A stretch of 32,000 bases of DNA, from assembly GCF_000284115.1 (NCBI RefSeq), contig NC_017080.1, forward strand, positions 870,001 through 902,000, written 5' to 3'. The notes below the pieces were generated by a model, which worked only from the letters and a program-made list of their open reading frames with translations, was not told the DNA's origin and did no database searches. Shown one piece after another: positions 1 to 14,548 of this stretch (position 1 is the stretch's first letter; the number at the start of each line of letters is the position of its first letter). The position numbers and the translations under genes are program-made. The stretch comes from Phycisphaera mikurensis NBRC 102666 (GTDB lineage Bacteria; Planctomycetota; Phycisphaerae; Phycisphaerales; Phycisphaeraceae).

Positions 1-3000
1 ACCGCGATCCAGAACGCCGCCGAGGTGAGCTTCACCAGCCTGCCCGGCGACGGCACCGACGCCGGCACCGGGGGCAACGGCACCGGATTGGCGGCGGGCA
101 CGCCGGGCGGGACCCAGGGCGAGCGGACCGGCGCCGGCGGCGTGAACGACCACGTCGACACGGACGCGGATCTCGGCACCACGGCCTCCCCCACCATCGA
201 CCTGCTGGCGCCCGCCACCGCCGCGGCCTCCGTCGGCGACGAGGTGACCTGGGAGGCCCGGGTCACGCTGCCCGAGGGGCGGACCCGGAGCTTCAGCGCG
301 AGCTTCGACGTTCCCGACGGCCTGGCCGTGACCGGCTGGCGCATCGTGCCCGGCGGCTTCGCCGGCACGCTGCCCACCCCCACCCAGACCTCCGGCGGAG
401 CCAGCGGGGAGGACCTGACGCTCTCCTTCGGCGACCTCACCAACCCCGCCGACGGCGGCGGCGGCAACGACGGCTTCCGCATCGAGTTCGACACCGTCGT
501 GGTCGACGAGGCCGCCAACGCCGACGGCGCCCGCCGCACGCTGCTCGCCAATCTGGACTTTGTCGACGGGCAGGACGACGCCAGGGACGACCGGGACGCC
601 ACGGCGGAGAGCGTGACGGTGGTCGAACCGGATCTCTCGGTCGCCACCGCCGCGTCGGGCGGGGCCACCGCGAGCGACCCGGTCACCTTCGTGACCACGG
701 TCGTGCACACGCCCGGCAGCTCCGCCACGGCCTACGACCTCTCCTTCGCCGACGCCGCCCCGGCCGGCTTCGTGGTCACCGGGATCGCCGGGGTGGCGGC
801 CGCTCCGGGCACCACGCTCCCCGCCGGGCTCAACGCGGCCTCGTTCGAGGTCGCTCCCGATGGGCGGTCCGTCCGCCTGGTCGCCGGCGTCGCCGAGGCG
901 CTGGACCTGCCGCTGGGCACCGGCTTCGAGCTCACCTGGACCGCGTCCGCGACGGCCGAGGCCCTCGCCGGCGCTGCCTATGCGAACGACGCGCAGCTCG
1001 CCTGGACGAGCACCGACGGCGAGCCGGGGGCCGGCGAGCCGGGCGAGCGCGACGGCAGCGACGGCGTCGGGTCGGCCCCCGCCTACCAGCAGGACGCCAG
1101 CGGCCTGGTGGTGGTGGAGGCGGAGCGGTACCACGGCAGCAGCGACGGCAGGGATTCGATGTGGTCCGTCATCGACGCGGGCGGCGGCGCCACCGCCGTG
1201 CGCGCCGATCCCAACGCGGGGCTCAACACCGACACCGACCTCGCCTCGCTGTCGCCCCGGCTGGATTACCGCGTGGAGTTCGACCGCAGCGGCACGCACT
1301 ACGTGTGGGTCCGGATGCGGGCCGATCCCGACTTCCCCGGCGGCAACGACAGCCTCCACATCGGCCTCGACGGGGCGAGGATCGCGTCCTCGGACCGGAT
1401 CTCCGCGAGCAACCAGACCGAGTTCATCTGGACTCGGAACACGATGGACAGCGCGGAGACCCGGGCCCACATCGACGGCATCACCGCCGGTGAGCACACG
1501 CTGAACCTGTGGATGCGCGAGGACGGCGTGGAGGTGGACCGGATCCTGCTCACCGACGACGGGTCCTTCACGCCGGGCTCGGGCGTGGGACCCCCGGCGA
1601 GCGCCGGCGGCCCCGACGGCACGACCGACCGCTACGCGGCGGAGGCTTCGGCCGAGCGGACGCTTCCGGCGGACCTCAGCCTCACCAAGCGCTTCCACGG
1701 CGACCCCGCCGCCGGCGGCACCATCGACTCGGCCGCGATCGGCGACACGGTCACCGTCGAGCTGGTGCTGGACCTCTCCGAGGGCACCACCTCCGGCGTG
1801 TCCATCGCCGAGCGGATCCCCGCGGGCCTCCGCCTCGTGGACGGCAGCCTGCGGCTGCTCTTCGACGCCGGCGTCTCCGCGCCCGACGCGGCCGACGCGT
1901 TCAGCGTCGCGGCCAACGGCGTGGACCACACGCTGTCGCTGGGGGACGTCGTCGTCGAGCCCGACGGCGGCTCGGGCAACGACCGCGTCACCATCCGCTA
2001 CGAGGCGGTCGTCGAGAACGCCGCGGCCACCACGGCGGCCACCTTCTTTCGGGAAGCCGCGACGGCGTCCGCCACCGCCGGCGGCGGCGTCAGCGACAGC
2101 GGGGTCGATCGCCTCGACGTCGACGAGGCCGACCTGACGCTTGCGTCGTCGGTGATCGGCACCTCCCGGCCGGACGGCGACACCGACGCCATCGAGGCCG
2201 GCGACACCGTCACCTACCGCGCAGAGGTCGCGCACGCCGCCACCAGCGAGGCGGGCGCCTTCGACCTGACGCTCACCGACGCCGCGGCCGACGGCCTGCT
2301 GATCACGGCCCTTGACGCGGTAAGCGGCAGTTCCGGATTGACCGCCGCCGACTTCGAGATCGTCGACGCCGGCGGGAACGCCGTGACCGACGGCAGCGGC
2401 GGGGTGGGGATCCGCCTTCTGCCCGGCCGCGACCTCGCCGAGGGCCAGACGCTGCGGGTCGACTACGTCGCCACCGCGCAGGCGGGCGTCTCCGCCGGCG
2501 CTGCCCTCGCCACCGACCTGCGGCTGACCTTCACCTCCACCGACGGCTCGAACGCCGACGAGCGGAACGGGTCGGCGTCGCCCGGCTTCAACGACCACTT
2601 CCGCGCCGCCAGCGCCTCCGCCACGGCGGGCGACGCCTTCGAGCTGACCAAGGCCGTGGCCGACGCCGGCGGCGACGGCGGGGCCGCGGTCGGCGAGACG
2701 CTGACCTACACGCTGACGCTGGAGCTCTTCGAGGGCACGACCGACGGCGTCCAGATCGCGGACGTCCTCCCCGGAGGCGTCCGCATCCTCGACGGCACCG
2801 TCGCCGTCGCCTTCGGCACGCCGGGCACGACGACGAGCAACACGATCCCCGCGACGGTCGTCCCCAGCGGGCAGGACCTGCTCTTCGACCTCGGCACGGT
2901 CGTCGTCCCCGGCGACGGCAGCGGGAGCAACAACACCGTCACGATCACCTACGACGCGGTCGTGGAGAACGCCGCTTCGAACCACCGGGACGCCACGCTC

Positions 3001-6000
3001 GCCTCCGGCGCCACCGCATCGGCGACGCCCGCGGCCGGCGACCTCGCCGCCACCGCGACGCCCGCGTCCATCGACGTCGACGAGGCGGACCTGACGCTGC
3101 AGACCGCCATCGTCGGAACCTCCCGCCCCGGTGACGCGACGGCCGGCATCGAGGCCGGGGACACCCTCACGTACCGCACCTCCGTCGCCCATGCGCCCGG
3201 CAGCGAAGCCGCGGCGTACGACCTGCTGCTCCGCGACGACGCCGCGGAGGGCCTGCGGATCACCTCCATCGACCGCGTGCTCGGCGCATCGGGCCTCGCC
3301 GCCGGCGACTTCCGGATCGTCGACGCCGCGGGCGACCCGGTGGCGCCCGGCGTCGGCGGCGTCGCGATCGAGCTGCTGCCCGGCCGCGACCTCGGGCTGG
3401 CGGAGTCCTTTGAGGTGGAGTACACGGCGACGGCGCAGGCCGACCTCGCCGCGGGCGCCACCCTCGCCAGCGACGCGCGGCTGACCTTCACCTCCACCGA
3501 CGGGCCCAACGCCGACGAGCGGGACGGATCCGGCGACTCCGCCGAGGACGACTTCGTCCGCTCCGCGGCGGTCGCGGCGTCCGCCGGCGACCGCCTGGAG
3601 CTCACCAAGACCGTGTCCGAGCCCTCGGGCAACGGCGGGGCGGAGATCGGCGAGACGCTGACGTACACGCTCCGCCTCGCGCTCATCGAGGGCGTCACCG
3701 AGGCGGTCACGATCGCCGAGCGCCTGCCCGACGGCGTGACGCTCGTGCCCGGGAGCGTCGCCGTCACCGGCGGCACGGCCGGGACCACCTTCGGCAACCC
3801 CGACGCCGCGACCGACTTCGTCCAGACCGGCCGGGACCTCGCCTTCACCCTGGGCGACGTCGCGATCCCCGCCGACGCCTCGGCGACCAACGCGACGGTG
3901 ACGCTGACCTACGACGTCACGGTCGACAACGCGGCGGGGCTCCAGCGGGGCACGCCGCTCGCCTCGGCGGCGACCGCCTCCGGCGGCGGCCCGGGCGTGG
4001 CCGACAGCACCGACGACGCCGCGCTCGCGGTGGCCGAGCCCGAGCTGACGGTGGCCACGGCCATCGACGGCACCAGCCGCCCCGGCGGCGCGACGAGCGG
4101 GCTCGAAGCGGGCGACACCGTGCGGTACGCGACGACCCTCGAGCACGCCGGAGGCAGCGACGCGACCGGCCACGATGCGATCCTGGTGATCCGCGCCGCG
4201 CCGGGGACCTCGTTCACCTCGCTGGCGGACGTGACGATCGGCGGCTCCAACGCCCTGGGCCTGACGGCCGCGGACTTCGAGCTCTTCGACGCCGGCGGCG
4301 GGCCGGACACCGGCCTGCGGCTGATCGACCCCGGCGGCGCGGACCTGGGCGTCGGCGAGCGGCTCGAGATCGGGTACACGGCGGTCGTCGGCGTCGGCGT
4401 GGAGCAGAACGCGCAGCTCGACGCGATCGCCACGGCGGCGTGGAGCTCCCTGGACGGAGCCGTACCCGGCGAGCGGGACGGCGGCGACGGCGTGGGTGGC
4501 CCGCTCGACGATTACGCGGCAACCGCCACGGGCTCCGTCGAGAGCGGGCAGTCGCTGGCGGTCGTCTCCAGCGTGTCCACCCCCGCCGGCGACGGCTCGG
4601 CGACCGTCGGCGAGGTGGTGACCTACGCCTTCGCGGTGGAGGTGCCCGAGGGCACCACCGAGGCCGTCGTGCTCGACCTGGTGCTCCCCGCCGCGGTGCA
4701 GCCCGTGCTCGACGACGCGGCCCGCCCGCCGGCGCTGGCCGCCGCCGCCGGCAACGCCGGCATCGCGTCGGGCTTCGCGGGGGTCGCCTCCTTCACCGAC
4801 CTCGGCGGCGGCCGCTACCGCGTGGACCTCGGCGACGTGGTCAACCCCGACAACGGCGTCGACGGCGACGAGACCGTCACGCTGACCTTCGACGCCCGCG
4901 TGCTCGACCGGCCGGCCAACGCCAACGGGGCGCTGCCCAACGCGACCGCCTCGGTGGCCACGACCTCCGGCGGCGGGCTCACGGCCACCGACCCGCAAGC
5001 CTCCTTCCGCGTCGACGAGCCGGAGCTGGGCCTGACCAAGACGGTCGACAACGCCACGCCGCGGCTGGGCGAGACGGTGACCTTCACCCTCGACACCGCG
5101 CACCTCGACGCCTCCACCGCCACCGCGCACGACCTGGTGATCACCGACGCGATGCCCCCGGGGCTGACCCTGGACGCGGGCAGCGTGGTGGTGCGGGTCG
5201 ACGGCGTCGCCTTCCCCGCGGGCGTGGTCGCCGGCAACGGCCCCGGCGACGCCTCCGTCCGCGTCGACCTCTCCTCCCTCCCCGAGGGGGTGGCGGTCCG
5301 CGTCACCTACGCGGCGGTGGTCACCTCCGACCCCGCGGCCTTCGGCGACACGCTCGACGCCCCCGCCGGCCTGGCCTGGGACTCCCTCGCCGCCGACGAC
5401 GGCGGCACCGACTCGGAGGACCGCGACGGCTTCGTCACCGACACGACCGACGCGCCGACCGTCATCTCCGGTGCCGACCTCGTCGTCAGCGTCGACGACG
5501 GCGCCGCGGACCGCGTGCCCGGCGAGACGTTCTCGTACGCCGTCCGCGTCGAGAACCCGGCGCTCCCGCACGGGCTCGCCGCCCGCGGCGTGGTGGTGAC
5601 CGCGGTGGTGCCCGAAGGCCTCACCTTCATCGGGACCACCGGGGCCGGGTCGGACTGGGCCGCGTACGACGCGGCGACCCGCACCCTCACCTCCACCGCC
5701 CGCGGCATCGCCACGGGCGCGGCGGACACGCTGGCGGTGGACGTCCGCGTCGACAACGCCGCGGCCTCGGGCCTGGAGAGCTTCACGCTCGGAGCCAGCG
5801 CGACGCAGCAGGACCTCGAGCCCACCCCCGCCGACAACGCGGCGAGCGACACGGACACCCTCCGCGCCGCCCCCGACTACGCCGTCGAGGTGACCGACTC
5901 GGTCGCTCCCGGCGAAGCCCTCGAGCCCGGCGACACGATCCGCTACGGCGTCGTCGCCTCCAACGTCGGCAACCAGGACGGCACCGACGTCGTCGTCACG

Positions 6001-7452
6001 CTCCGGCTCGACCCCGCGGCGATCGAGGACGTCCAGCCCTCCGGCAACGGCGTCTACGACCCCGCCACCGGCGTGGTGACCTGGACGCTCCCGACCCTCG
6101 CCGCCGAGGGCCCCGGCGCGACGCCGGCCCCCGGCAGCAGCGCCGCCTTCACCGTGGACGCCACCGTCCGCGGGGACCTCTCCGCGACGATCGTGAGCTT
6201 CACCGGCGACGCGGCGATCGCCGACGACGGCGGCGACGGGGCGGATCCCGACGCAAGCAACAACGGCTCCGCCGGCGTGCCGGTCGCGCTGGAGGCGGTG
6301 CCGAACCTGGGCGTGACGATCAGCGACGGCCTCGACGGCGCCTCGCCCGGCGACGAGACCGCCTACGTGGTGACGCTGAGCAACGCCGGCCCCGGGCAGG
6401 AGGCGGTGAACGCGGTGGTGGAGGTGACCCTCCCCGAGTCGGTGCTCCGCGTCACCACCGTCGGGACCGGCCCGGACGCGGTGGACGTGGCGGCGATCGC
6501 CGACCCCGCCACCGGCGTCGCGACCTTCTCGGGCATCGCCCGCACGGCCGACGGCGTGGAGGTGCCCTACACCGCCACGCTGACGCCGGCGTCGGCCTCG
6601 GCCGAGCCGGGCAGCGGCAACGCGACGCTCCGCTACGCCTTCGCCTCGGTGCCGGTGGGCGTGGTCCTCCCGCTGGTCCACAACACGGAGCTGCTCGACC
6701 CGCCGCCCTCGGGCGTGCGGTCGTACGCCAGCTCGGTGACGGTCGCCGACGACGGGACCAACGGCCTCGAGCGGGACCTCCGCAACAACACCGCGACCGA
6801 CGCGAACAGCCTCGACGTCTTCGTTTTCGACTCCGGAACGGACGCCCGCCCCGGCGGCTCGGGCTCGGGCTTCTCCGCCGGGCCGCGGGCCTACGGCGTG
6901 GCGGCGGGCTTCGACGACGGCTTCCGCAGCTTCGCCTCGTCCGACCGGGCGCCCGACCCGGTCTACAGCGGCAACGCCGCGCCGGGCGCCTCGGTCAGCG
7001 TCGACCTCTACGACGACCAGGGCAACCGCATCGGCAGCCGGAGCGTCACCGCCGACGCGGCCGGGAGCTGGTCGCTCTCGCTGCCCTCGGCGATCATCCA
7101 CAGCGAGAACCGCGTGGAGGCGCCCCCCGTCTTCGCCGAGGCCCGCAACTTCGGCTACGGGCACCGGCTCTTCGACGACCGCCTGTCTTCGCTGGGGTAC
7201 GACGTCGCCGGCGGCGGCAACACGGTGGGCACGCTGCTGGGGCCGGGCTCCTTCACCGCGGTGGTCGGCAGCCAGGCGGGGACGCTCGGCGGCGGGCTCG
7301 ACGGCGAGACGCCGATCACCGGCTTCACGCCGGCGACCGGCCAGCGGGCCTTCGTCACCGGTGCCCTGAACGTCCCCGCGGTGTTCGCGGACGCGGCGGG
7401 CCCGAGTGTGGCCGCCGCGGCGGAGGCGGCGAGGCGCCCGCTGGCGGGCTGA
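1..7452 (+). CDS. Giant repetitive cell-surface adhesin-like protein with DUF11 / conserved-repeat-domain modules; 5' end lies outside the window
   Basis: The frame is open from nt 1 (no stop before the track start at 25). The track ORF is 2475 aa with a stop at 7450-7452. At least 7 DUF11-like modules are visible (e.g. LGLTKTVDNATPRLGETVTFTL..., ADLVVSVDDGAADRVPGETFSYAVRVEN..., PNLGVTISDGLDGASPGDETAYVVTLSNAG...). An L.[FW]TS.DG....ER[DN]GS motif recurs at module ends. A Big-like segment sits near the C-terminus (VYSGNAAPGASVSVDLYDDQGNRIGSRSVTADAAGSWSL). Confidence 0.85.
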   Translation, partial: TAIQNAAEVSFTSLPGDGTDAGTGGNGTGLAAGTPGGTQGERTGAGGVNDHVDTDADLGTTASPTIDLLAPATAAASVGDEVTWEARVTLPEGRTRSFSASFDVPDGLAVTGWRIVPGGFAGTLPTPTQTSGGASGEDLTLSFGDLTNPADGGGGNDGFRIEFDTVVVDEAANADGARRTLLANLDFVDGQDDARDDRDATAESVTVVEPDLSVATAASGGATASDPVTFVTTVVHTPGSSATAYDLSFADAAPAGFVVTGIAGVAAAPGTTLPAGLNAASFEVAPDGRSVRLVAGVAEALDLPLGTGFELTWTASATAEALAGAAYANDAQLAWTSTDGEPGAGEPGERDGSDGVGSAPAYQQDASGLVVVEAERYHGSSDGRDSMWSVIDAGGGATAVRADPNAGLNTDTDLASLSPRLDYRVEFDRSGTHYVWVRMRADPDFPGGNDSLHIGLDGARIASSDRISASNQTEFIWTRNTMDSAETRAHIDGITAGEHTLNLWMREDGVEVDRILLTDDGSFTPGSGVGPPASAGGPDGTTDRYAAEASAERTLPADLSLTKRFHGDPAAGGTIDSAAIGDTVTVELVLDLSEGTTSGVSIAERIPAGLRLVDGSLRLLFDAGVSAPDAADAFSVAANGVDHTLSLGDVVVEPDGGSGNDRVTIRYEAVVENAAATTAATFFREAATASATAGGGVSDSGVDRLDVDEADLTLASSVIGTSRPDGDTDAIEAGDTVTYRAEVAHAATSEAGAFDLTLTDAAADGLLITALDAVSGSSGLTAADFEIVDAGGNAVTDGSGGVGIRLLPGRDLAEGQTLRVDYVATAQAGVSAGAALATDLRLTFTSTDGSNADERNGSASPGFNDHFRAASASATAGDAFELTKAVADAGGDGGAAVGETLTYTLTLELFEGTTDGVQIADVLPGGVRILDGTVAVAFGTPGTTTSNTIPATVVPSGQDLLFDLGTVVVPGDGSGSNNTVTITYDAVVENAASNHRDATLASGATASATPAAGDLAATATPASIDVDEADLTLQTAIVGTSRPGDATAGIEAGDTLTYRTSVAHAPGSEAAAYDLLLRDDAAEGLRITSIDRVLGASGLAAGDFRIVDAAGDPVAPGVGGVAIELLPGRDLGLAESFEVEYTATAQADLAAGATLASDARLTFTSTDGPNADERDGSGDSAEDDFVRSAAVAASAGDRLELTKTVSEPSGNGGAEIGETLTYTLRLALIEGVTEAVTIAERLPDGVTLVPGSVAVTGGTAGTTFGNPDAATDFVQTGRDLAFTLGDVAIPADASATNATVTLTYDVTVDNAAGLQRGTPLASAATASGGGPGVADSTDDAALAVAEPELTVATAIDGTSRPGGATSGLEAGDTVRYATTLEHAGGSDATGHDAILVIRAAPGTSFTSLADVTIGGSNALGLTAADFELFDAGGGPDTGLRLIDPGGADLGVGERLEIGYTAVVGVGVEQNAQLDAIATAAWSSLDGAVPGERDGGDGVGGPLDDYAATATGSVESGQSLAVVSSVSTPAGDGSATVGEVVTYAFAVEVPEGTTEAVVLDLVLPAAVQPVLDDAARPPALAAAAGNAGIASGFAGVASFTDLGGGRYRVDLGDVVNPDNGVDGDETVTLTFDARVLDRPANANGALPNATASVATTSGGGLTATDPQASFRVDEPELGLTKTVDNATPRLGETVTFTLDTAHLDASTATAHDLVITDAMPPGLTLDAGSVVVRVDGVAFPAGVVAGNGPGDASVRVDLSSLPEGVAVRVTYAAVVTSDPAAFGDTLDAPAGLAWDSLAADDGGTDSEDRDGFVTDTTDAPTVISGADLVVSVDDGAADRVPGETFSYAVRVENPALPHGLAARGVVVTAVVPEGLTFIGTTGAGSDWAAYDAATRTLTSTARGIATGAADTLAVDVRVDNAAASGLESFTLGASATQQDLEPTPADNAASDTDTLRAAPDYAVEVTDSVAPGEALEPGDTIRYGVVASNVGNQDGTDVVVTLRLDPAAIEDVQPSGNGVYDPATGVVTWTLPTLAAEGPGATPAPGSSAAFTVDATVRGDLSATIVSFTGDAAIADDGGDGADPDASNNGSAGVPVALEAVPNLGVTISDGLDGASPGDETAYVVTLSNAGPGQEAVNAVVEVTLPESVLRVTTVGTGPDAVDVAAIADPATGVATFSGIARTADGVEVPYTATLTPASASAEPGSGNATLRYAFASVPVGVVLPLVHNTELLDPPPSGVRSYASSVTVADDGTNGLERDLRNNTATDANSLDVFVFDSGTDARPGGSGSGFSAGPRAYGVAAGFDDGFRSFASSDRAPDPVYSGNAAPGASVSVDLYDDQGNRIGSRSVTADAAGSWSLSLPSAIIHSENRVEAPPVFAEARNFGYGHRLFDDRLSSLGYDVAGGGNTVGTLLGPGSFTAVVGSQAGTLGGGLDGETPITGFTPATGQRAFVTGALNVPAVFADAAGPSVAAAAEAARRPLAG
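1105..1575 (+). other. Lectin / carbohydrate-binding-module-like beta-sandwich domain embedded in the adhesin
   Basis: The segment is LVVVEAERYHG...WSVIDAGGGATAVRADPNAG...LDYRVEFDRSGTHYVWVRMRA...GNDSLHIGLDG...FIWTRN...ITAGEHTLNLWMREDGVEVDRILLTDDGSFTP. The pattern (VEAE..., G.Y.VW.R, NDS, REDG..DRI.LT) resembles CBM/ConA-like sugar-binding modules. Family assignment is by pattern only. Confidence 0.5.
1672..4551 (+). repeat. Three in-frame tandem two-domain modules of about 957-963 nt (about 320 aa) inside the adhesin gene
   Basis: The LTK anchors (acc aag) lie at 1684, 2647 and 3604, giving periods of 963 and 957 nt. The VDEADLTL anchors lie at 2116 and 3073, with a diverged AEPELTV near 4030. 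The modules align along their whole length at protein level (e.g. GETLTYTLTLELFEGTTDGVQIADVLPGGV vs GETLTYTLRLALIEGVTEAVTIAERLPDGV). Confidence 0.8.
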
Positions 7453-7604: not shown

Positions 7605-9392
7605 ATGACCCAGACCGCCACCGCCACCTCGCCCCCCGCCGCGACGGCGGCTGCGCCGGCCCTGCGGCTGACGCGGGGACAGGCCCAGCCGGGTCCGGAC
7701 GAGTGCTTCGCCCGCCTCCGGAGCTTCCGCGGGCCCACGGAGGCCTTCCTCGCCGAGCTGCTCGGGCTGCAGGCGGCGCTGGCCGGCGCCGTGGCCGGGT
7801 GGGTCTTCGCGGCGGGATCGGCCGAGCCGCTGGCGGCGACGGGGGCGGTGGACGCGGCCTCCACCGCGCGGGCGGCGGCGCTGGCTGCGGGCGAGGCTTC
7901 CCCGCCGGGCCCGTTCCGTCTGCAGCCGCTGGCCGGGCCCGAGGGCCCGGTGACGGTGCTCCGCCTCCCGGTCCCGGTCGCGGCGGGGGCCGACGCCGTC
8001 ACCCGCGAGCGGCTCGCGCTCACCGCGACGCTCTACGGCCTGCACGAGCAGCGGCTCGCCGCCGAGCGGGCGGGCGCCGGCCTGGCGGTCGCGGCGATCG
8101 CGGCGGTGGCCGGGGAAGAGGCGTCCTTCGAGGCGGGGGCGCTCGCGCTGGCGGCGGCGCTGGTGGACCGGCTGGGACCCGGTGCCCAGGCGGCGGCGGT
8201 GGGCTGGCCCGGCCGCGGCGGGCGGGTCCGGGTGGCGGCGATCGCGCCGCTCACCGACGCCGACGCCGGCACGTCCGCCCACCAGGCGCTGGCGGCGGCG
8301 CTCGCGGAGGCGAGCCGGTCTCCGCTGCCGCACACGGACCCCGCGGCCGCCCTCGCGGCGGAGGCGCTGGGCACGCCCGCCGCCGCCGCCGTCGCGGCCC
8401 GGCCCGGGGAGCCCGCGGCCGGGCCGGTGCTGCTGCTGGGCTTCGACCCCGCCCGGCTGGATCCGGGGCTGGCGGCGGCGCGGCTGGCCGCCGTCGCCGC
8501 CGCCGCCCGGGGCCCGCTGGCGTTGCTGGCGCGGGCCGATCGGCCGCTCGCGGGGCGCCTGCCCGAGGCTCTCGCCCGCGTGGCGGTCCGCGGAGGCGTC
8601 GGCCGGCGCGTGGTCGCGGCGGCGCTGGCCGTGGCGCTGGGGGCGGTCGCGCTGGTCCCGGTGCCGGCGACGGTGCGGGCGGGCTTCACCGCGGAGGCCG
8701 ACGGTGCCCGCACCGTGGCGGCCGCGGCCGAGGGCCAGCTCGCCTCGGTCGCGGTGATGCCCGGCGACGCGGTGCGCGCCGGGGTCACCGTGCTCGGGAC
8801 GCTCGCCACCGACGAGCTGCGGCTGGAGCGGGCCACCCTCCTCGCCGAGCGGAGCACCCACCGGCGCGAGGCTGACGACACGCGCGGCCACGACCCGACG
8901 GCCTCCCGCCTCGCGGAGCTGGAGGTCGAACGGCTCGACGCCGCGATTGCGCTCGCCGACCACCGCATCGCCGCGGCCCGGCTGGTCTCGCCGATCTCCG
9001 GGGTCGTGACCTCCCCGGACCTGCACCCGCGGATCGGCACGCCGGTCACGCGGGGGGAGACGCTCTTCGAGGTTGCCGACCCCGCGCGCCTGACCGCCGC
9101 GGTGGCCGTCCCCGAGGCGGTGGCGCACCGGGTGCGGGTGGGGGCCCGCGGCCGGCTGCGGCCGGCGTCGCACCCCGGGGTCTCGCTACCGGTCACCGTG
9201 ACGCGCCTCAGCCCCCGGGGCGAAGCCACCGCGGCCGGCACCGTGTTCCGCGTGGAGGTCGCCTTCGACCGCGTTCCCGGCTGGCTGAAGGAGGGTTCGC
9301 GGGGGCAGGCCCGGATCGACGCCGGCCACGCCCCGCTCCTGGGGCAGTGGGTGGGTCCGACGCTGGACGCGCTGCGGCTGCACATGCCATGA
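7605..9392 (+). CDS. HlyD-family periplasmic adaptor (membrane fusion protein) with a cytoplasmic N-terminal extension of about 330 aa (possibly GAF-like)
   Basis: 595-aa ORF with high GC3. A single TM segment is visible (RRVVAAALAVALGAVALVPVP). It is followed by MFP hallmarks: GQLASVAVMPGDAVRAGVTVLGTL, a coiled-coil stretch, LVSPISGVVTS, GTPVTRGETLFEVADPARL, and a beta-barrel tail ending GSRGQARIDAG. Its stop overlaps the next start (ATGA at 9389-9392). Confidence 0.75.
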   Translation: MTQTATATSPPAATAAAPALRLTRGQAQPGPDECFARLRSFRGPTEAFLAELLGLQAALAGAVAGWVFAAGSAEPLAATGAVDAASTARAAALAAGEASPPGPFRLQPLAGPEGPVTVLRLPVPVAAGADAVTRERLALTATLYGLHEQRLAAERAGAGLAVAAIAAVAGEEASFEAGALALAAALVDRLGPGAQAAAVGWPGRGGRVRVAAIAPLTDADAGTSAHQALAAALAEASRSPLPHTDPAAALAAEALGTPAAAAVAARPGEPAAGPVLLLGFDPARLDPGLAAARLAAVAAAARGPLALLARADRPLAGRLPEALARVAVRGGVGRRVVAAALAVALGAVALVPVPATVRAGFTAEADGARTVAAAAEGQLASVAVMPGDAVRAGVTVLGTLATDELRLERATLLAERSTHRREADDTRGHDPTASRLAELEVERLDAAIALADHRIAAARLVSPISGVVTSPDLHPRIGTPVTRGETLFEVADPARLTAAVAVPEAVAHRVRVGARGRLRPASHPGVSLPVTVTRLSPRGEATAAGTVFRVEVAFDRVPGWLKEGSRGQARIDAGHAPLLGQWVGPTLDALRLHMP

Positions 9393-11593
9393 CCGGTGCC
9401 CACGCCGAGCCCTGGGAAGCCGTCGGCGCCCTGAAGCTGCGGCTGCGCGACGGGCTGCGGTGGTCGCACCACGCCACGCCCGGCGGCGTCTGGCGCGTCG
9501 TCCGCAACCCGCTGTCGGGCCGGTGCGCCCGCGTGGACCGCGCCGGGTTCGTCTTCCTCCACGCCCTCGACGGCGAGCGGACGGCCGAGGAGGCGCTCGC
9601 CATCGCGGCCGAGACGCTCGGGCCCGCCGCGCCCGACCGCGAGGAGGCGCTCGGGCTGATCGCGTTCGCGACCTCCGCGGGCCTGCTCGGCCAGTCGCTC
9701 CCGCCGGCCGCCGCCGCCGTCGTCGAGCGACGCTCGGCCCGCCGGCGCGCCGCCCGGGTGCAGCGGGGTCTGTCGGTGCTGTTCTGGCGGCAGCGGCTGT
9801 GGAACCCGGATCGCCTGCTCGACCGGGTCGCCCCGCCGCTGTCGCCGGTGTTCTCGGGGCTCGGCTTCGCGGTCTGGCTGCTCGCGCTGCTCGCCGGCGC
9901 CTGGCACCTGGCGGCGGGCTCGGAGCGGTTCGCCGAGGCGCTGGCCGGCGCGCTGCGGTTCGATCCGGCCTACCTCCTGGGCGCACTCGGCGTCTTCGTC
10001 GGCCTCAAGCTGCTGCACGAGCTCGCCCACGGCGTGGCGTGCAAGCACTTCGGCCGCGGCGTGCCCGGCGGCTGCGAGGTGCCCGCGGTGGGGCTGATGC
10101 TGCTGGTCGCGGTGCCGGTGCCGTTCATCGACGTCACGTCCAGCTGGCTGATCCCCTCGCGCTGGGGGCGGGCGGCGGTCGCGGCCGCGGGGCTGTACGC
10201 CGAGCTCTTCGTGGCGGCCCTCGCCGCGGTGGTCTGGGCCCACACCGCGCCGGGCCTGCTGAACACCCTCGCCTTCCAGACGGTGCTGATCGCCTCGATC
10301 GCGACGATCCTCTTCAACGCCAACCCGCTGCTGCGGTACGACGGGTACCACGCCCTCGCCGACGCCGCCGGCATCGCCAACCTCGGGCAGCGTGCCCAGG
10401 CGATGGTCACCGGCGCGGCGCTGCGCCTCCTGGGCGTGCCCGCGGAGCGCGCCTTCGCCGCGGCGCCCGGCGGGGAGAGCTTGGGCGAGGCTTCGACGCG
10501 GCAGCGCGTCCTGCTGGTCGTCTACGCCGTGGCGTCGACCGCGTACCGGTGGCTGATCCTCGCCGTGATCGTGGTGATGGTCGGCGGGCAGTGGCTGCTG
10601 CTGGGCAAGGTGCTGGCGGCGATGGCCGCCGTCGGCTGGCTCGTGCTGCCCCTGGCCCGCTTCGTCGCCCGGCTGCGGCGCGAACTCGCCGAGGCCGGGC
10701 GCGGCCGCCGGGCGCTGGCGGTCGGCGGCGGCGTGGCGGCCGCCGCGGTCGCGCTCGCGGTGCTGGTTCCGGTGCCCCGCTTCGCCTTCGCGCCCGGCGT
10801 CGCCGAGGCGCGGGCGACGGCCCAGGTGCGGCCCCGCACGGGCGGCTTTCTCCGGCGCGTGCTCCCCGCGGGCGAGGCGGCGGACCCCGCGGGCCCGCCG
10901 CTGCTCACCCTCGCCGATCCGGCCCTCGCCGCCGAACGCGCCGGCGCCGCGGCCCAGCTCGCCGCCGCCCGCGTGCGGCTCGACGCCGCCGCCGGCGGCC
11001 CGCCGGCGGAGGCCGCGGCGCTCGCCGACCGCTGCGCGGCCCTCGCCGACCGCCTCGCCGAGCTCGACCGCCGGATCGCGGCCCTGCGCGTGCCCGCCGC
11101 CGCCGCGGGCGTGTGGATCCCCGAGGACCCGCACCTCGCCGCCGGCGACTTCCTCGCGCCCGGCGTGCCCGCGGGCGTGGTCGCCGATCTCTCCGGCCGG
11201 CGCGCCCGCCTGCTCGCCGACCAGCACCTCGGGCCCCGCCTCGCGGCGGCGATGGGCCCCGGCGGCCGGGTCACGGTGCGGTCCTCCGCCGGGCGCTTCG
11301 AGGCCCGCGTGCTGGAGATCGCCCCGGCCGGCTCCACCCGCCTGCCGTCCGCGGCCCTGGGCCAGGCCGGCGGCGGGGCGGTGCGGCTGGAGACCGGGCC
11401 GCGGCCGGACGCCGCGCCCGGCGGCGAGGCGGCCGAGCCCTTCTTCGAGGTCGTCCTCGACCTCGTCGCCCCCGCGGACGGCCGGCCGCTGCCGCTGCCC
11501 GGTGAGCGCCTCCGGGGCACCTTCCGCCTGCCCGCCGAGCCGCCGGCGGTGACCGCCGTCCGCTGGATCCGCCAGGCCCTGCTCGTGCGCTGA
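9389..11593 (+). CDS. Fusion protein: PqqD/RRE-like N-terminus, M50 (site-2 protease family) zinc metalloprotease membrane domain, and a C-terminal HlyD-like adaptor domain
   Basis: I place the start at ATG 9389 (ATGA overlap with the upstream stop); the track start at 9347 would overlap further. The HExxH motif (HELAH) is at 10016-10030 inside a hydrophobic segment. The second S2P motif (NANPLLRYDG, matching NxxPxxxxDG) is at 10316-10345. Multiple TM segments are present. The N-terminus (LRLRDGLRW...VWRVVRNPLSGRCARVDRAGFVFLHALDGERTAEEAL...LIAFATSAGLL) follows the PqqD pattern. The C-terminus has MFP-like strands and a coiled coil (AAERAGAAAQLAAARVRLDAA..., VTVRSSAGRFEARVLEIAP). Confidence 0.75.
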   Translation: MTGAHAEPWEAVGALKLRLRDGLRWSHHATPGGVWRVVRNPLSGRCARVDRAGFVFLHALDGERTAEEALAIAAETLGPAAPDREEALGLIAFATSAGLLGQSLPPAAAAVVERRSARRRAARVQRGLSVLFWRQRLWNPDRLLDRVAPPLSPVFSGLGFAVWLLALLAGAWHLAAGSERFAEALAGALRFDPAYLLGALGVFVGLKLLHELAHGVACKHFGRGVPGGCEVPAVGLMLLVAVPVPFIDVTSSWLIPSRWGRAAVAAAGLYAELFVAALAAVVWAHTAPGLLNTLAFQTVLIASIATILFNANPLLRYDGYHALADAAGIANLGQRAQAMVTGAALRLLGVPAERAFAAAPGGESLGEASTRQRVLLVVYAVASTAYRWLILAVIVVMVGGQWLLLGKVLAAMAAVGWLVLPLARFVARLRRELAEAGRGRRALAVGGGVAAAAVALAVLVPVPRFAFAPGVAEARATAQVRPRTGGFLRRVLPAGEAADPAGPPLLTLADPALAAERAGAAAQLAAARVRLDAAAGGPPAEAAALADRCAALADRLAELDRRIAALRVPAAAAGVWIPEDPHLAAGDFLAPGVPAGVVADLSGRRARLLADQHLGPRLAAAMGPGGRVTVRSSAGRFEARVLEIAPAGSTRLPSAALGQAGGGAVRLETGPRPDAAPGGEAAEPFFEVVLDLVAPADGRPLPLPGERLRGTFRLPAEPPAVTAVRWIRQALLVR

Positions 11594-11635
11594 GCGGCTC
11601 CGGCCCGCGGCTGGAGCGCCCCGCCACCCCGCGGC

Positions 11636-12565
11636 TCAATCCGCCGCGGCGTCGGCGACGGGGTCCGCACCGAGCGTCGCGAGGTCCAGCCCCACCGTGA
11701 AGCCGGCGGGCAGGCGGCCCCCGGGGTTCTCGATCTCGAAGACGCAGCGGAAGGAGCGGCTGCCCGGATCGATCTCCGGCAGCGCCGCGATCAGCCGGCC
11801 CCGCAGCGCTTCCGCCCCCGCCAGCGAGGAGCGGAAGCGGACGCGGGGCCCGGGGCCGTCGCGGCCGGCCCCGGCGAGGCGGTCGTGCAGACGCTCAGGG
11901 AGGTAGACCACCGCGTGCAGCGGGTCCAGCGCCGCCAGCCGCAGCACCGGATCCCGCGCCGCCACGCTCCCGCCCTCCGCCGCCTCGACCGCGAGCACGA
12001 CGGCGTCGAAGGGGGCCACCAGGCGGTGTTGGGCCAGCAGGGCCTCCTCCACCGCCAGCTCGGCGGCGGCCAGCGCCCGGCGCTGCCCCGCCGCGTCGCG
12101 GCGGGCCTCGGCCACCGTGACCGCCGTCCGCGCCGCCTCCAGCTCCCACGCCGGGGCCGCGCCCGAGGCGGCGGCCTCCTCGGTGCGTCCCAGCTCCCGG
12201 CGGGCCTGCTCCGCCACGGCCGCGAGCTCCACCGCCTCGGCGGTGGCGGAGGCGCGGACCCCGGCCGCGGCGACGCGGGCGGCCTGCACCGAGTCGTCCA
12301 GCCGCGCCAGCAGGTCGCCGGCCGCGACGGCCGCGCCCTCACGCACCGCGACCTCCGCCAGCGAGCCGCCGGTGAGCGCCCGCAGGACGACCTCCCGGCT
12401 CGGCCGCACGACCCCGATGGGGGCGTCGGTCGCGTCGGCCGCGGCGGCTGGATCGGCCTCGGCGTCCGCGGCGGGTTCCACCGCCGAGGCGTCCGCCGCG
12501 AGCGGCAGCCACGCCGCGAGCGCGGCGGCGAGGAGCATCCGGAGGGGTCGACGCGGGTGGTTCAT
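11636..12565 (-). CDS. Secreted HlyD/efflux-type periplasmic adaptor subunit
   Basis: I place the start at ATG 12565 (MNHPRRPLRMLLAAALAAWLPLAADASA, a Sec-type signal peptide). The residues upstream in the track ORF are Arg/Pro-rich. MFP motifs are present: GSLAEVAVREGAAVAAGDLLARLDD, a coiled coil, LVAPFDAVVLAV, DPLHAVVYLPE and SRSFRCVFEIENPGGRLPAGFTV. The gene converges on the M50 fusion gene, with 42 bp between the two stops. Confidence 0.75.
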   Translation of the reverse strand: MNHPRRPLRMLLAAALAAWLPLAADASAVEPAADAEADPAAAADATDAPIGVVRPSREVVLRALTGGSLAEVAVREGAAVAAGDLLARLDDSVQAARVAAAGVRASATAEAVELAAVAEQARRELGRTEEAAASGAAPAWELEAARTAVTVAEARRDAAGQRRALAAAELAVEEALLAQHRLVAPFDAVVLAVEAAEGGSVAARDPVLRLAALDPLHAVVYLPERLHDRLAGAGRDGPGPRVRFRSSLAGAEALRGRLIAALPEIDPGSRSFRCVFEIENPGGRLPAGFTVGLDLATLGADPVADAAAD

Positions 12566-12609
12566 GGGCCTGCCATCGGCCGGCGCGGCCCGCGAGCATC
12601 GCCGCGGCC

Positions 12610-12651
12610 GCGGACCGCCGCGGGGCGGGCGGTTTCGCGGCGGCGGTCCGC
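12610..12651 (-). terminator. Terminator-like hairpin (GCGGACCGCCGC / GCGGCGGTCCGC) downstream of the GSP17M-like gene
   Basis: A perfect 12-bp inverted repeat spans 12610-12621 / 12640-12651 with an 18-nt loop. It starts 15 nt after the stop at 12666 (minus strand). It belongs to the same GGACC/GGTCC-centred family as four other gene-end hairpins. No U-tract. Confidence 0.35.
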
Positions 12652-12665
12652 GGCGGCCGCCGCGG

Positions 12666-13193
12666 TCACGCCGCCGGCACCGCCGGGGCGTCTTCGCCCG
12701 CGTCGGGACCGTCGGCAGCGGATCCGTCCAGGCCGGCGGCCCGCCGCGCCTCGCCGGTGAACTCCGCATCGCAGAGCACCTTGAAGCGCTGCGCCGCCAG
12801 GGAGCCGACGCTCGAGAAGTCACGCTTCCCGCCGGTCAGCAGGTAGGTGAGCAGGCGGAAGATCGCGCCGAGGATCGCCCCGTAGAGCACGCACATGAGC
12901 AGGAAGTTGACCCAGCCGCCCGGCTCCAGGGTGAAGGCGCCCAGCAGCAGGCCGATGAACAGGCCCAGGACCGCGCCCGAGCCGGCGCCCTGCAGCGCCG
13001 CCTTCCCGGGGTTGAGCCGGCCGGTCACCTTCTCGACGAACTGCAGCCCCTCACCGACGATCGCGCAGTGCTCGACGGGGAACCCGGCGTCGCTGAGGCG
13101 GTCGACGAGGGCCTGCGCCTCGGCGTAGGTCTTGAAGGTGCCCAGCACGGGGCGATCGGTGTCGGGAGCGGTCTGGTGGACGCCGGCGGGCAT
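12666..13193 (-). CDS. General stress protein 17M (YflT)-like domain membrane protein
   Basis: The 175-aa ORF reads TFKTYAEAQALVDRLSDAGFPVEHCAIVGEGLQFVEKVTGRL, then two Gly-rich TM segments, then GGKRDFSS...RFKVLCDAEF. This closely follows the pattern of actinobacterial GSP17M-like membrane proteins. Confidence 0.75.
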   Translation of the reverse strand: MPAGVHQTAPDTDRPVLGTFKTYAEAQALVDRLSDAGFPVEHCAIVGEGLQFVEKVTGRLNPGKAALQGAGSGAVLGLFIGLLLGAFTLEPGGWVNFLLMCVLYGAILGAIFRLLTYLLTGGKRDFSSVGSLAAQRFKVLCDAEFTGEARRAAGLDGSAADGPDAGEDAPAVPAA

Positions 13194-13229
13194 GGGAGGG
13201 CCTTCTCGGGGTGGAGGAACGCAAGAAAT

Positions 13230-14237: not shown

Positions 14238-14548
14238 GGTCGGTGGGAGGCGGCGTGGCCACGGGCCTCCCCCCGGCGACCGCGGGCGGGAACCTATCGC
14301 AGGGTGCGCCCACCCCAAGCCCCGGGGCCGCCAGCCGCGGCGAGCGGCGCCTCCGCGGGCGCTGGCGGTGCACGCCGCGTGCGGAGGCCTCGGCTGCGCC
14401 GCCGCCGGCGGACAAGACGCTGTCCGCGCGAGCCACCGGGCTGCGTCCCCCGCGGTTGCGAGGAGGAGGGGAGTTCGTAGGATGTTCGGATGCTCCCGAA
14501 CGACCCGATCGCGTCCCGCCGGCCGGCCAGGCGCCGCCCCGGACGGCT

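What the first reader, a model, noticed from the sequence alone, without database searches (positions are those of the whole stretch)
7605..12565. Transporter-less cluster of three HlyD-type adaptors, one fused to a PqqD-like module and an M50 intramembrane protease, directly downstream of a giant adhesin
Seen in sequence: two translationally coupled genes (ATGA overlap at 9389-9392) and a convergent third gene all encode membrane-fusion-protein (HlyD-like) periplasmic domains. The middle protein also carries both site-2-protease catalytic motifs in hydrophobic segments (HELAH at 10016-10030; NANPLLRYDG at 10316-10345). It has an N-terminal stretch of about 90 aa with the PqqD/RiPP-recognition-element pattern (about 9425-9700). 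The first protein has a cytoplasmic extension of about 330 aa (GAF-like by pattern). No ABC, RND or MFS pump and no TolC-like gene lies within at least 7 kb upstream, which is taken up by the adhesin. None appears anywhere downstream in this window either. Established knowledge: HlyD/MFP adaptors normally bridge an energised inner-membrane transporter to an outer-membrane channel, M50 proteases cut substrates within the membrane plane, and PqqD-like domains bind leader peptides. Inference: the protease itself may act as the inner-membrane partner of an adaptor assembly, coupling peptide or anchor cleavage to delivery across the periplasm. The substrate is not evident. Candidates are the neighbouring adhesin or an unlinked small peptide. 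I know of no characterised system with this architecture.
Basis: partly seen in the sequence, partly recalled or inferred. Interest (0 to 1): 0.72.

Follow-up and report, generated by a model that had tools for sequence, protein, structure and literature searches.

The report
Leader-cleaving giant-protein export cassette, motor missing
These three genes are the envelope-spanning adaptor and leader-processing part of a widespread but never tested secretion apparatus for very large surface proteins; the cassette was first noted in 2015, and this bacterium's copy lacks the SecA-like motor gene that almost all relatives carry.

Summary
The sequence observation holds. Three real genes in Phycisphaera mikurensis encode membrane-fusion-protein (MFP) domains. 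The middle protein is an RRE/PqqD-like domain, an M50-type intramembrane metalloprotease and an MFP in one chain.

The "transporter-less, unknown architecture" reading does not hold. The cluster belongs to a cassette described by Kamneva et al. 2015 (PMC4452313), whose Table S2 lists these two genes.

In relatives, a truncated SecA paralogue follows the M50-MFP gene in 60 of 65 loci. In the cultured relative Mucisphaera it sits between B and the convergent MFP gene. Here only 42 bp lie at that position.

A TolC-family gene sits immediately upstream of the giant gene, about 5 kb outside the window.

New here:
- The neighbouring proteins, including this 4118-aa DUF11 protein, carry an N-terminal LEPR-XLL motif (NCBIfam NF012209).
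- The N-terminal domain of B most resembles leader-binding lasso-peptide RREs.

I propose a type-I-like duct. The RRE docks the LEPR-XLL leader, the M50 site cleaves it, and three MFPs plus TolC carry the protein out. What drives export in this SecA-less copy is unknown. Nothing has been tested experimentally.

The parts
1..7452 (+). C-terminal 2483 aa of a 4118-aa DUF11/CLIPPER-repeat giant protein (P0218), the proposed substrate. Its N-terminus lies about 4.9 kb left of the window and reads MPEPRPSAKPARRGPRYSTLEPRLLMDANP.
   Evidence: GC3 0.97 in frame. Pfam DUF11 E 2.5e-36, GH115_C and DUF7619. NCBIfam LEPR-XLL NF012209 scores 17.3 bits at aa 19-33, just above the cut-off of 17. The first 45 residues contain no hydrophobic Sec-type h-region.
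7605..9392 (+). Gene A: cytoplasmic N-terminal region (aa 1-335, degenerate GAF-type), one TM helix (aa 336-354, nt 8610-8666), and a periplasmic MFP domain (aa ~367-574).
   Evidence: Pfam HlyD_3 and HlyD_D23. TIGR01730 60 bits. Hydropathy. Aligns end to end with GAF-MFP orthologues, E 1.5e-24. 22 of the 24 aligned family members hit Pfam GAF; this copy does not. An A-type gene lies directly before B in 65 of 68 related loci.
9389..11593 (+). Gene B: fusion of an RRE/PqqD-like domain, an M50-type intramembrane metalloprotease and an MFP domain. Its start overlaps the stop of A (ATGA).
   Evidence: NCBIfam daptide_HExxH E 2e-36 over aa 27-432, covering profile positions 11-378 of 379, but 125.9 bits is below the cut-off of 300. 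AF2 model pLDDT 85, pTM 0.69. More than 598 relatives in GTDB species genomes.
9458..9676 (+). B aa 24-96: cytoplasmic beta3-alpha3 winged-helix domain (RRE/PqqD-like), the proposed leader-docking site.
   Evidence: Secondary structure in two models. Foldseek hits TbiB1-leader complexes 5V1V/5V1U (prob 1.00, TM 0.69, rmsd 3.3), lasso B1 6JX3 and CteB 5WHY. The family profile hits PqqD 3G2B at E 2e-4 over the whole chain. Pfam PqqD is found in homologues (28 bits in L001) but not in this copy.
9809..10765 (+). B aa 141-459: polytopic membrane core carrying HELAH (nt 10016-10030) and NANPLLRYDG (nt 10316-10345).
   Evidence: The HExxH and NxNPLLRYD residues and Y320 are invariant, and G319 is conserved in at least 90%, across 25 homologues. 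Hydropathy shows about 8 hydrophobic segments. The best PDB match of the N-terminal model is M. jannaschii site-2 protease 3B4R (E 0.048, prob 0.99, TM 0.40). Pfam M50 is sub-threshold here at 13.9 bits, but it is precomputed for most homologues.
10772..11590 (+). B aa 462-734: periplasmic MFP domain (beta-barrel and lipoyl parts plus an alpha-hairpin at aa 511-564).
   Evidence: Foldseek MexA, AcrA, MacA, ZneB and EmrA, E 4.5e-11 to 1e-7, TM about 0.6 on the target. Profile against PDB sequences: MacA, EmrA and MexJ, E 3e-18 to 1.5e-15.
11594..11635 (.). A 42-bp gap between the stop of B and the stop of convergent C. This is the position where relatives carry the SecA-like ATPase gene.
   Evidence: Sequence. 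In Mucisphaera calidilacus the order is LEDR-protein, A, B, SecA-like (666 aa), then a convergent C. SecA-like follows B in 60 of 65 loci. No SecA similarity in any frame of the window.
11636..12565 (-). Gene C: secreted periplasmic MFP (309 aa; an alternative start at 12538 gives 300 aa).
   Evidence: TIGR01730 111 bits, above the cut-off of 94.9. Pfam HlyD_3 E 3.4e-14 and Biotin_lipoyl_2. N-terminal hydrophobic segment at aa 11-29. A C-type MFP is present in 36 of 39 related loci with enough flank.

Best explanation
A, B and C are the inner-membrane and periplasmic core of a type-I-like, one-step export apparatus. It is dedicated to proteins that carry an N-terminal LEPR-XLL leader. Here the substrate is the adjacent 4118-aa DUF11 surface protein.

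Shown:
- The gene string is TPR protein, TolC-family OMP, LEPR-XLL giant protein, A, B, with C convergent.
- All three are MFPs. B also carries a leader-peptide-binding-type RRE domain and a conserved M50 active site.
- The same cassette recurs in hundreds of genomes next to LEPR-XLL proteins, normally with a truncated SecA paralogue and often with DUF3467.

Inferred:
- The cytoplasmic RRE of B docks the LEPR-XLL leader of the unfolded substrate.
- The M50 site removes the leader at the membrane. This is functionally like the C39 peptidase domain of peptidase-containing ABC exporters.
- The MFP domains of A, B and C form the periplasmic sleeve onto the TolC-like channel.
- The GAF-type cytoplasmic domain of A gates or regulates the process.
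- In relatives, the SecA-like motor (NBD1, PPXD and NBD2, with no wing or scaffold end) feeds the chain.

In P. mikurensis that motor gene is absent from the locus. Export here must therefore use a motor encoded elsewhere or the housekeeping SecA, or it is impaired.
For: Cassette conservation:
- More than 598 loci in species genomes of Planctomycetota, Verrucomicrobiota, Pseudomonadota, Desulfobacterota, Nitrospirota and Campylobacterota.
- A lies before B in 65 of 68 loci. SecA-like lies after B in 60 of 65. A C-type MFP is present in 36 of 39, DUF3467 in 17 of 39, OEP in 4 of 39.
- SecA-like scores 497-540 bits to SecA models over profile positions ~16-608 of 789, below the cut-offs.
- Prior independent description.

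Substrate link:
- Strict LEPRx[LM][LMF] occurs 11 times in 2.5 M aa of six-frame translation of the loci. In ten cases it lies 19-80 aa after the upstream stop; in the eleventh (P. mikurensis) it is at residue 20 of the called protein. All are at the start of ORFs that are long or cut by the contig end.
- NF012209 is hit by the giants of this locus, L001 and L075.
- Among homologues of the giant's body, 3 of 3 with an LE[PD]R N-terminus have cassette genes alongside. 0 of 2 without the motif do; those are sortase-linked instead.
- The Mucisphaera and Mesorhizobium plasmid loci, retrieved through SecA-like, also start with an LE[PD]R protein.
- From the leader side, 77 of 80 metagenome hits are N-terminal and 42 ORFs exceed 1000 aa. 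Of 45 loci with at least 2.5 kb visible upstream, 7 carry A, B, SecA-like or DUF3467, and 15 carry any cassette-type part.

Domain evidence for B.

Other points:
- The TolC-family gene lies directly upstream of the giant gene. Close homologues of it (E 1e-99 to 1e-113) sit next to other LE[PD]R giants.
- The giant's N-terminus has no Sec-type hydrophobic core.
Against: - No experiment exists for any member. Only expression of the GAF gene in M. extorquens has been reanalysed.
- RRE-leader binding and cleavage are inferences. No complex could be modelled here.
- LEPR-XLL scores only 17.3 bits in this giant, against a cut-off of 17.
- The locus lacks both the SecA-like gene and DUF3467, so it may not be functional. 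At least one other locus (L088) also lacks SecA-like within 10 kb, so the motor may not be obligatory.
- An M50 fold is not known to conduct polypeptides, and no other polytopic membrane protein is in the cassette. The inner-membrane path is therefore unexplained.
- From the leader side, most loci show no cassette upstream. The downstream side is hidden by the 10-kb flank limit.
Confidence: 0.6

Rival explanations
1. Self-sufficient, motor-less assembly. The M50-MFP protein together with A, C and TolC moves or releases the substrate without any dedicated ATPase. Energy might come from proton-motive force or from folding and Ca2+-type ratcheting outside the cell.
For: No ATPase gene lies within 10 kb upstream of the giant gene or 20 kb downstream of B. 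L088 (Pseudomonadota) has OEP, giant, A-, C- and B-like genes and SapC, but no SecA-like within 10 kb. All residues invariant in the B family are retained here.
Against: 60 of 65 related loci encode the SecA paralogue directly after B, often with overlapping or abutting reading frames. The closest cultured relative has it exactly where this genome has 42 bp. Absence in cis does not show absence from the genome.
Confidence: 0.12
2. Decaying remnant. After loss of the SecA-like gene and DUF3467, the cassette no longer exports anything and the genes persist by inertia.
For: Two otherwise common cassette genes are missing. Pfam no longer detects GAF in A, or M50 and PqqD in B, at its thresholds. 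B is at most 39% identical to any relative.
Against: All three ORFs are intact and of full family length, with GC3 of 0.90-0.95. The catalytic and other invariant residues are kept. The 4118-aa substrate gene and the TolC-like gene are intact.
Confidence: 0.12
3. Maturation and export system for a small ribosomal peptide (RiPP or bacteriocin). The RRE-M50 module trims a leader peptide and the HlyD proteins export the product. The giant gene is only a neighbour.
For: The RRE plus HExxH membrane protease module aligns end to end with the daptide leader protease model (E 2e-36) and weakly with YydH/LiaK. The RRE is structurally closest to lasso-peptide B1 proteins.
Against: The score is far below the daptide family cut-off (125.9 against 300). 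No modifying enzymes, precursor-like small ORFs or ABC exporter appear in this or the related loci. The conserved neighbours are LEPR-XLL proteins of 270 to more than 10,000 aa, a SecA paralogue and TolC.
Confidence: 0.06
4. Anchoring or regulated release rather than export. The giant protein is exported by another route, and the A/B/C-TolC complex tethers it in the envelope. This would resemble the retention module of LapA-type adhesins. M50 cleavage, controlled by the GAF domain, would release or signal.
For: The GAF-type sensor domain on A and the protease fused to an envelope-spanning adaptor suggest a regulated cleavage step. T1SS adhesins are known, from established knowledge, to be retained in TolC-type channels by N-terminal modules.
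Against: The giant protein has no Sec or Tat-type N-terminal signal and no other exporter gene nearby. A SecA-derived motor in relatives argues for translocation rather than tethering alone.
Confidence: 0.08

Closest known systems
Secondary-SecA_DEAD / type-I-like conserved locus of Kamneva, Poudel & Ward 2015 (PLoS One 10:e0129066, PMC4452313)
   Same: Same gene families: a Peptidase_M50/HlyD protein, a GAF/HlyD protein, a HlyD/biotin-lipoyl protein and an occasional OEP. P. mikurensis PSMK_16500 and PSMK_16490 appear in their Table S2. They also proposed M50 as the membrane component with the SecA_DEAD protein replacing the ABC ATPase.
   Different: This locus has no SecA_DEAD gene beside B. 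The paper did not report the RRE domain, DUF3467, the LEPR-XLL leader or giant proteins as substrates. Its "distance 1/2 from SecA_DEAD" entry for P. mikurensis does not fit the sequence.
Classical type I secretion (HlyB-HlyD-TolC; LapBCE) and peptidase-containing ABC exporters (PCAT, C39 domain)
   Same: An MFP sleeve plus a TolC-family channel, encoded next to a giant repetitive surface protein. The concept of removing an N-terminal leader at the exporter is shared with PCATs.
   Different: There is no ABC transporter. Three different MFPs replace one. The signal is an N-terminal LEPR-XLL motif rather than a C-terminal signal or a GG leader. The protease is an M50 metalloprotease with an RRE rather than a C39 cysteine peptidase.
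RiPP leader peptidases of the RRE + HExxH intramembrane type (daptide protease NF041824; YydH/LiaK NF058609)
   Same: B aa 27-432 aligns over almost the whole daptide protease model (E 2e-36). It shares the RRE-then-membrane-HExxH architecture.
   Different: It scores below both family cut-offs. It is fused to an MFP. The context has no RiPP genes, and the presumed substrates are large proteins.
Site-2 proteases (RseP, SpoIVFB, MjS2P; Pfam PF02163)
   Same: HExxH and NxxPxxxxDG motifs in hydrophobic segments. MjS2P 3B4R is the best PDB match of the membrane core.
   Different: Pfam score is below gathering. There are no PDZ or CBS domains and no sigma/anti-sigma context. The structural match is weak (TM 0.40).
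Accessory SecA2 systems of Gram-positives and SecA_DEAD domains inside giant Omnitrophota proteins (West-Roberts et al. 2023 preprint, 10.1101/2023.11.21.568195)
   Same: A SecA paralogue dedicated to very large surface proteins. The paralogues lack the wing and scaffold part.
   Different: Those systems have no MFP, TolC or M50 partners described. In this window the paralogue is absent altogether.

Membership tests
Kamneva-2015 secondary-SecA_DEAD/T1SS-like cassette | Peptidase_M50 + HlyD fusion protein | tested here: met
   B.. Listed as PSMK_16500 in their Table S2.
Kamneva-2015 secondary-SecA_DEAD/T1SS-like cassette | GAF + HlyD protein adjacent to the M50 gene | tested here: met
   A overlaps B (ATGA) and aligns end to end with GAF-MFP orthologues. 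GAF itself is not detected by Pfam in this copy, although 22 of the 24 aligned family members hit it.
Kamneva-2015 secondary-SecA_DEAD/T1SS-like cassette | Small HlyD/biotin-lipoyl periplasmic protein | tested here: met
   C. TIGR01730 111 bits, above 94.9; Biotin_lipoyl_2.
Kamneva-2015 secondary-SecA_DEAD/T1SS-like cassette | Secondary SecA_DEAD protein (no wing/scaffold) encoded in the locus | tested here: not met
   tblastn finds nothing in 32 kb. Nothing in the 10 kb upstream of the giant gene. Elsewhere in the genome could not be tested.
Classical type I secretion system | ABC transporter (HlyB type) as inner-membrane energiser | tested here: not met
   Pfam on all ORFs of the window. No ABC gene lies next to B in related loci.
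Classical type I secretion system | MFP and TolC-family outer-membrane protein | tested here: met
   A, B and C are MFPs. The OEP-family gene L085:7819-9897 scores Pfam 94.4 bits and lies outside the window.
Classical type I secretion system | C-terminal secretion signal / RTX repeats on the substrate | tested here: inconclusive
   Pfam finds no HemolysinCabind in P0218. The giant in L001 does have it. The uncleaved C-terminal signal has no profile to test.
Peptidase M50 (site-2 protease), Pfam PF02163 | HExxH and NxxPxxxxDG motifs in membrane segments | tested here: met
   HELAH 210-214 and NANPLLRYDG 310-319. All motif residues are invariant in 25 homologues except G319, which is at least 90% conserved.
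Peptidase M50 (site-2 protease), Pfam PF02163 | Score at or above the Pfam gathering threshold | tested here: not met
   13.9 bits against 27.2 for this copy. The best homologue tested scores 26.2.
Peptidase M50 (site-2 protease), Pfam PF02163 | S2P core fold | tested here: inconclusive
RRE / PqqD-like leader-binding domain (PF05402) | beta3-alpha3 winged-helix fold resembling solved RREs | tested here: met
   TbiB1 5V1V/5V1U prob 1.00, TM 0.69; also 6JX3 and 5WHY. Profile against PqqD 3G2B gives E 2e-4. Pfam is sub-threshold in this copy.
RRE / PqqD-like leader-binding domain (PF05402) | Binds a leader peptide | not testable with these tools
   Needs complex prediction or binding assays.
Daptide biosynthesis intramembrane metalloprotease (NF041824) | Score at or above the curated cut-off, with daptide BGC context | tested here: not met
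   125.9 bits against 300. No biosynthetic genes nearby.
LEPR-XLL domain protein (NF012209), for the giant neighbour | N-terminal LEPRxLL motif at or above the cut-off | tested here: met
   17.3 bits against 17 at aa 19-33 of P0218, which is marginal. The giants in L001 and L075 score 33 and 20.7 bits.

The most novel reading that the evidence does not exclude
This is a distinct envelope-spanning secretion pathway for leader-bearing proteins, many of them giant. The features that set it apart are:
- An RRE domain, otherwise known from RiPP biosynthesis, recognises an N-terminal LEPR-XLL leader.
- A fused site-2-type protease removes that leader.
- A hetero-oligomeric sleeve of three MFPs hands the chain to a dedicated TolC-like channel.
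- A SecA-derived motor replaces the ABC transporter.

P. mikurensis would then be a natural variant that runs the pathway without its own motor gene.
Probability: 0.35. Interest if true: 0.85.

Novelty: new variant of a known kind. Interest (0 to 1): 0.6.

Why it matters
LEPR-XLL proteins are among the largest bacterial proteins. One on a Mesorhizobium plasmid is 10,518 aa, and one in Aquincola is 13,617 aa. The paper library searched here holds nothing on how they leave the cell.

The cassette is found in hundreds of species, including plant symbionts, methylotrophs and planctomycetes. NCBI annotation still names its parts "hypothetical protein" and "DEAD/DEAH box helicase".

If the model is right, it adds a secretion route that combines parts of the Sec, type I and RiPP-maturation machineries. 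It also gives a simple sequence tag, the LEPR-XLL leader, for predicting its substrates. The SecA-less P. mikurensis locus offers a natural test of whether the motor is essential.

Tried and rejected
- **Literature.** A search for M50 + HlyD + PqqD returned no papers. The "giant/SecA/HlyD" hits were irrelevant, apart from the 2015 paper and the giant-gene preprint. LEPR-XLL and DUF3467 appear only in incidental mentions.
- **Whereabouts of the motor.** I could not test whether P. mikurensis encodes the SecA paralogue elsewhere. The top 120 hits of the SecA-like search named no P. mikurensis protein. The 25 plasmid records listed, out of 143 with a match, included no Phycisphaera.
- **DUF3467 in this genome.** The 116-aa ORF upstream of the TPR gene is not DUF3467.
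- **Regulatory signals.** Promoter and terminator scans found nothing in this 80% G+C region.
- **Leader scan.** The ten-sequence leader alignment was too variable for a collection scan. A four-sequence alignment worked.
- **Shadow ORFs.** Long ORFs on the opposite strand (for example 8033-11227 -, and 12117-14480 +) were rejected by codon-position G+C.
- **The "giant" ORFs after B in L014, L038, L066 and L072.** Their N-termini resemble the helicase HrpA. This rests on memory and was not tested. They lack the LEPR motif, so they were not counted as substrates.

Full report
**Source and gene calls.** The middle protein is 100% identical to a Phycisphaera mikurensis protein carried on a 3.8-Mb contig. 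The window is 69-83% G+C and full of shadow ORFs, so genes were accepted only where third-position G+C marks the frame. That gives five features:
- the 3' part of a giant gene (1-7452 +);
- A (7605-9392 +);
- B (9389-11593 +), overlapping A by ATGA;
- a 42-bp gap;
- convergent C (11636-12565 -).

**Checking the observation.**
- A has HlyD_3 and HlyD_D23 hits at aa 367-557. It has a single TM helix at aa 336-354, which leaves about 335 cytoplasmic residues.
- C passes the curated cut-off of the RND_mfp model (111 bits against 94.9). It starts with a signal-like segment.
- B carries HELAH (nt 10016-10030) and NANPLLRYDG (nt 10316-10345). In 25 homologues of only 25-38% identity, all of these motif residues are invariant except G319, which is at least 90% conserved.

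For B the standard profiles are weak. Pfam M50 scores 13.9 bits against a cut-off of 27.2, and Pfam PqqD is not found. I therefore sought other evidence:
- NCBIfam's daptide intramembrane metalloprotease model aligns over aa 27-432, almost its full length, at E 2e-36. The score is below the cut-off.
- An AlphaFold model built on the 25-sequence alignment has pLDDT 85.
- The C-terminal ~280 residues of that model match MexA, AcrA, MacA and ZneB (E 4.5e-11). The family profile hits MacA, EmrA and MexJ sequences at E 1e-15 to 3e-18.
- A second model of residues 1-462 has pLDDT 85.6. Its best PDB match is the M. jannaschii site-2 protease (E 0.048, prob 0.99, but TM only 0.40).
- The next matches to that model are lasso-peptide RRE proteins solved with their leader peptides (TbiB1 5V1V/5V1U, prob 1.00, TM 0.69; also 6JX3) and the RRE of CteB.
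- The family profile also hits PqqD 3G2B over its whole length (E 2e-4).

So B is RRE, then M50-type protease, then MFP. The RRE and MFP parts are well supported. The protease fold is supported mainly by motifs and family homology.

No ABC, RND, MFS or OEP gene exists in the window.

**What the relatives show.** Neighbourhoods of B homologues immediately changed the picture. In a metagenomic Phycisphaerae contig and in Aquincola, B is flanked by a GAF-MFP gene, a ~670-aa SecA-like gene, a small MFP, DUF3467 or a TolC gene, and a giant gene of 2873+ or 13,617 aa.

I classified ORFs in the best 80 loci with phmmer:

| Feature | Count |
|---|---|
| A directly before B | 65 of 68 |
| SecA-like directly after B | 60 of 65 |
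| C-type MFP present | 36 of 39 |
| DUF3467 present | 17 of 39 |
| OEP present | 4 of 39 |

The SecA-like protein is a genuine SecA paralogue. It has SecA_DEAD, PPXD and the second P-loop domain and scores 497-540 bits to SecA models. It ends near profile position 608 of 789, so it lacks the wing/scaffold end.

**Prior art.** This cassette was described bioinformatically by Kamneva, Poudel & Ward (2015). They reported secondary SecA_DEAD proteins encoded with Peptidase_M50/HlyD, GAF/HlyD and HlyD/biotin-lipoyl proteins and sometimes OEP. They proposed that the SecA_DEAD protein supplies ATPase activity and that the M50 protein supplies the membrane component.

Their Table S2 lists P. mikurensis PSMK_16500 and PSMK_16490, which are B and A. 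I found no experimental follow-up in the library. NCBI annotation still calls the parts "hypothetical protein" and "DEAD/DEAH box helicase".

**What is peculiar to this locus.** tblastn with two SecA-like queries, DUF3467 and TolC finds nothing in any frame of the 32-kb window.

Walking upstream via the full-length giant protein (P0218, 4118 aa) shows the gene order TPR protein, 692-aa OEP-family protein (Pfam OEP 94.4 bits), giant protein, A, B. No SecA-like gene lies in the 10 kb upstream. The TolC-like gene is thus part of the string but lies 5.0-7.1 kb left of the window.

In the cultured relative Mucisphaera calidilacus the layout is LEDR-protein, A, B, SecA-like, then convergent C. This is identical to the window except for the SecA-like gene, which sits where P. 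mikurensis has 42 bp. The complete-genome copy has the same neighbours as the draft.

Kamneva's table gives B and A "distance 1 and 2" from a SecA_DEAD protein. That does not fit the sequence, and I cannot explain it.

One other locus also lacks SecA-like within 10 kb. L088 (Pseudomonadota) has OEP, a giant gene, and convergent A-, C- and B-like genes plus SapC.

**A substrate tag.** The N-termini of the big neighbouring ORFs share the motif F-E-x-LEPRxLL(S/M)A. The P. mikurensis giant begins MPEPRPSAKPARRGPRYSTLEPRLLMDANP. This is NCBIfam NF012209, the LEPR-XLL domain. The scores are 17.3 bits here (cut-off 17), 33 bits in L001 and 20.7 bits in L075.

Evidence for the link between this motif and the cassette:
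- Across 2.5 M aa of six-frame translation of the loci, the strict motif occurs 11 times. In ten cases it lies 19-80 aa after an upstream stop, and in the P. mikurensis case it is at residue 20 of the called protein. All are at the start of ORFs that are long or cut by the contig end.
- A relaxed motif adds three ORFs of 270-370 aa, so substrates need not be giant.
- Among 120 homologues of the giant's body, 20 have an LE[PDE]RxLL N-terminus. Three of these were checked and all sit beside cassette genes. Two without the motif sit beside sortases and have no cassette.
- Loci retrieved through the SecA-like protein begin the same way. Mucisphaera has RFESLEDRVLLSA. A 10,518-aa Mesorhizobium plasmid protein has HFEALEPRLLLSAD.
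- Starting from the leader in metagenomes, 77 of 80 hits are N-terminal and 42 ORFs exceed 1000 aa. Of 45 loci with at least 2.5 kb visible upstream, 7 carry A, B, SecA-like or DUF3467, and 15 carry some MFP or TolC cassette-type gene. The downstream side is hidden by the flank limit, so this is a lower bound.
- The window holds no second such motif.
- The giant's N-terminus has no hydrophobic Sec-type core.

**Mechanism.**

Shown: the gene content and order, the domain make-up, conservation of the active site, and co-location with LEPR-XLL proteins and a TolC-family gene.

Inferred:
- The RRE of B binds the LEPR-XLL leader, as lasso-peptide B1 proteins bind theirs.
- The M50 site removes it, functionally like the C39 domain of peptidase-containing ABC exporters.
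- The MFP domains of A, B and C build the periplasmic sleeve to the TolC-like channel.
- The GAF-type domain of A regulates.
- The SecA-derived motor drives the chain in relatives.

Unexplained:
- How a polypeptide crosses the inner membrane, since B is the only polytopic protein in the cassette.
- What drives export in P. mikurensis.

Rivals are a truly motor-less assembly, a decaying remnant, a small-peptide (RiPP-like) system, and an anchoring or release device. Each is scored in its own section. The RiPP reading is the weakest, because no precursor or modification genes are conserved.

**Verdict.** It is wrong on novelty and on "transporter-less".

The locus is a SecA-less variant of a catalogued but experimentally untouched cassette. 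The leader/RRE link and the dedicated TolC-like partner are new, testable additions.

Noticed in passing
L085:6472-9897 (about 5.0-8.4 kb left of window base 1): A 352-aa TPR protein and a 692-aa OEP/TolC-family protein lie on the same strand directly upstream of the giant gene. Close homologues of this unusually long TolC-like protein (E 1e-99 to 1e-113) sit next to other LE[PD]R giants in L086, L087 and L088.
   Followed up: partly
Kamneva et al. 2015, Table S2 (PMC4452313), against window 11594-11635: The table places PSMK_16500 and PSMK_16490 at distance 1 and 2 from a SecA_DEAD protein. No SecA-like sequence exists in the window or in the 10 kb upstream of the giant gene. The discrepancy is unexplained.
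   Followed up: partly
L015:9083, L029:1934, L063:6454 (related loci): ORFs of only about 270-370 aa also start with the LE[PE]RxLL motif beside the cassette. The tag is therefore not restricted to giant proteins.
   Followed up: no
L088:24914-25639; Kamneva Table S2, cluster 4: A SapC-family protein recurs in proteobacterial versions of the cassette. A 2026 preprint on Chlorochromatium giant proteins also mentions sapC and tolC next to giant genes, and mentions a separately acquired secA. These may belong to the same system.
   Followed up: no
L092 (Mesorhizobium ciceri plasmid NZ_CP088148, 16982-55951): A complete cassette with a 10,518-aa LEPR-XLL Ig-like protein sits on a 458-kb plasmid. 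Rhizobium, Ensifer and Rhodobacteraceae plasmids also match the SecA-like protein. This fits horizontal spread.
   Followed up: partly
L014:7393, L038:12938, L066:1814, L072:1697: The long ORFs after B, or near it, in these loci begin with a sequence resembling the helicase HrpA N-terminus. This rests on memory and was not tested. L014 and L038 are two of the five loci that lack SecA-like after B.
   Followed up: no
window 12666-14735 (-): Directly beyond C lie a YflT-domain stress protein (175 aa) and a WYL/WCX-domain HTH regulator. It is unknown whether they relate to the cassette.
   Followed up: no
window 21696-23351 (+) and 29555-30703 (-): A PIN-PhoH fusion protein (551 aa), and a TatC homologue of 382 aa. 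The TatC length is well above the 208-position Pfam TatC profile, and the match comes in two separate stretches.
   Followed up: no
window 8033-11227 (-), 12117-14480 (+) and many others: Very long shadow ORFs (up to 1064 aa) run opposite real genes in this 80% G+C DNA. They could mislead ORF-based annotation.
   Followed up: yes
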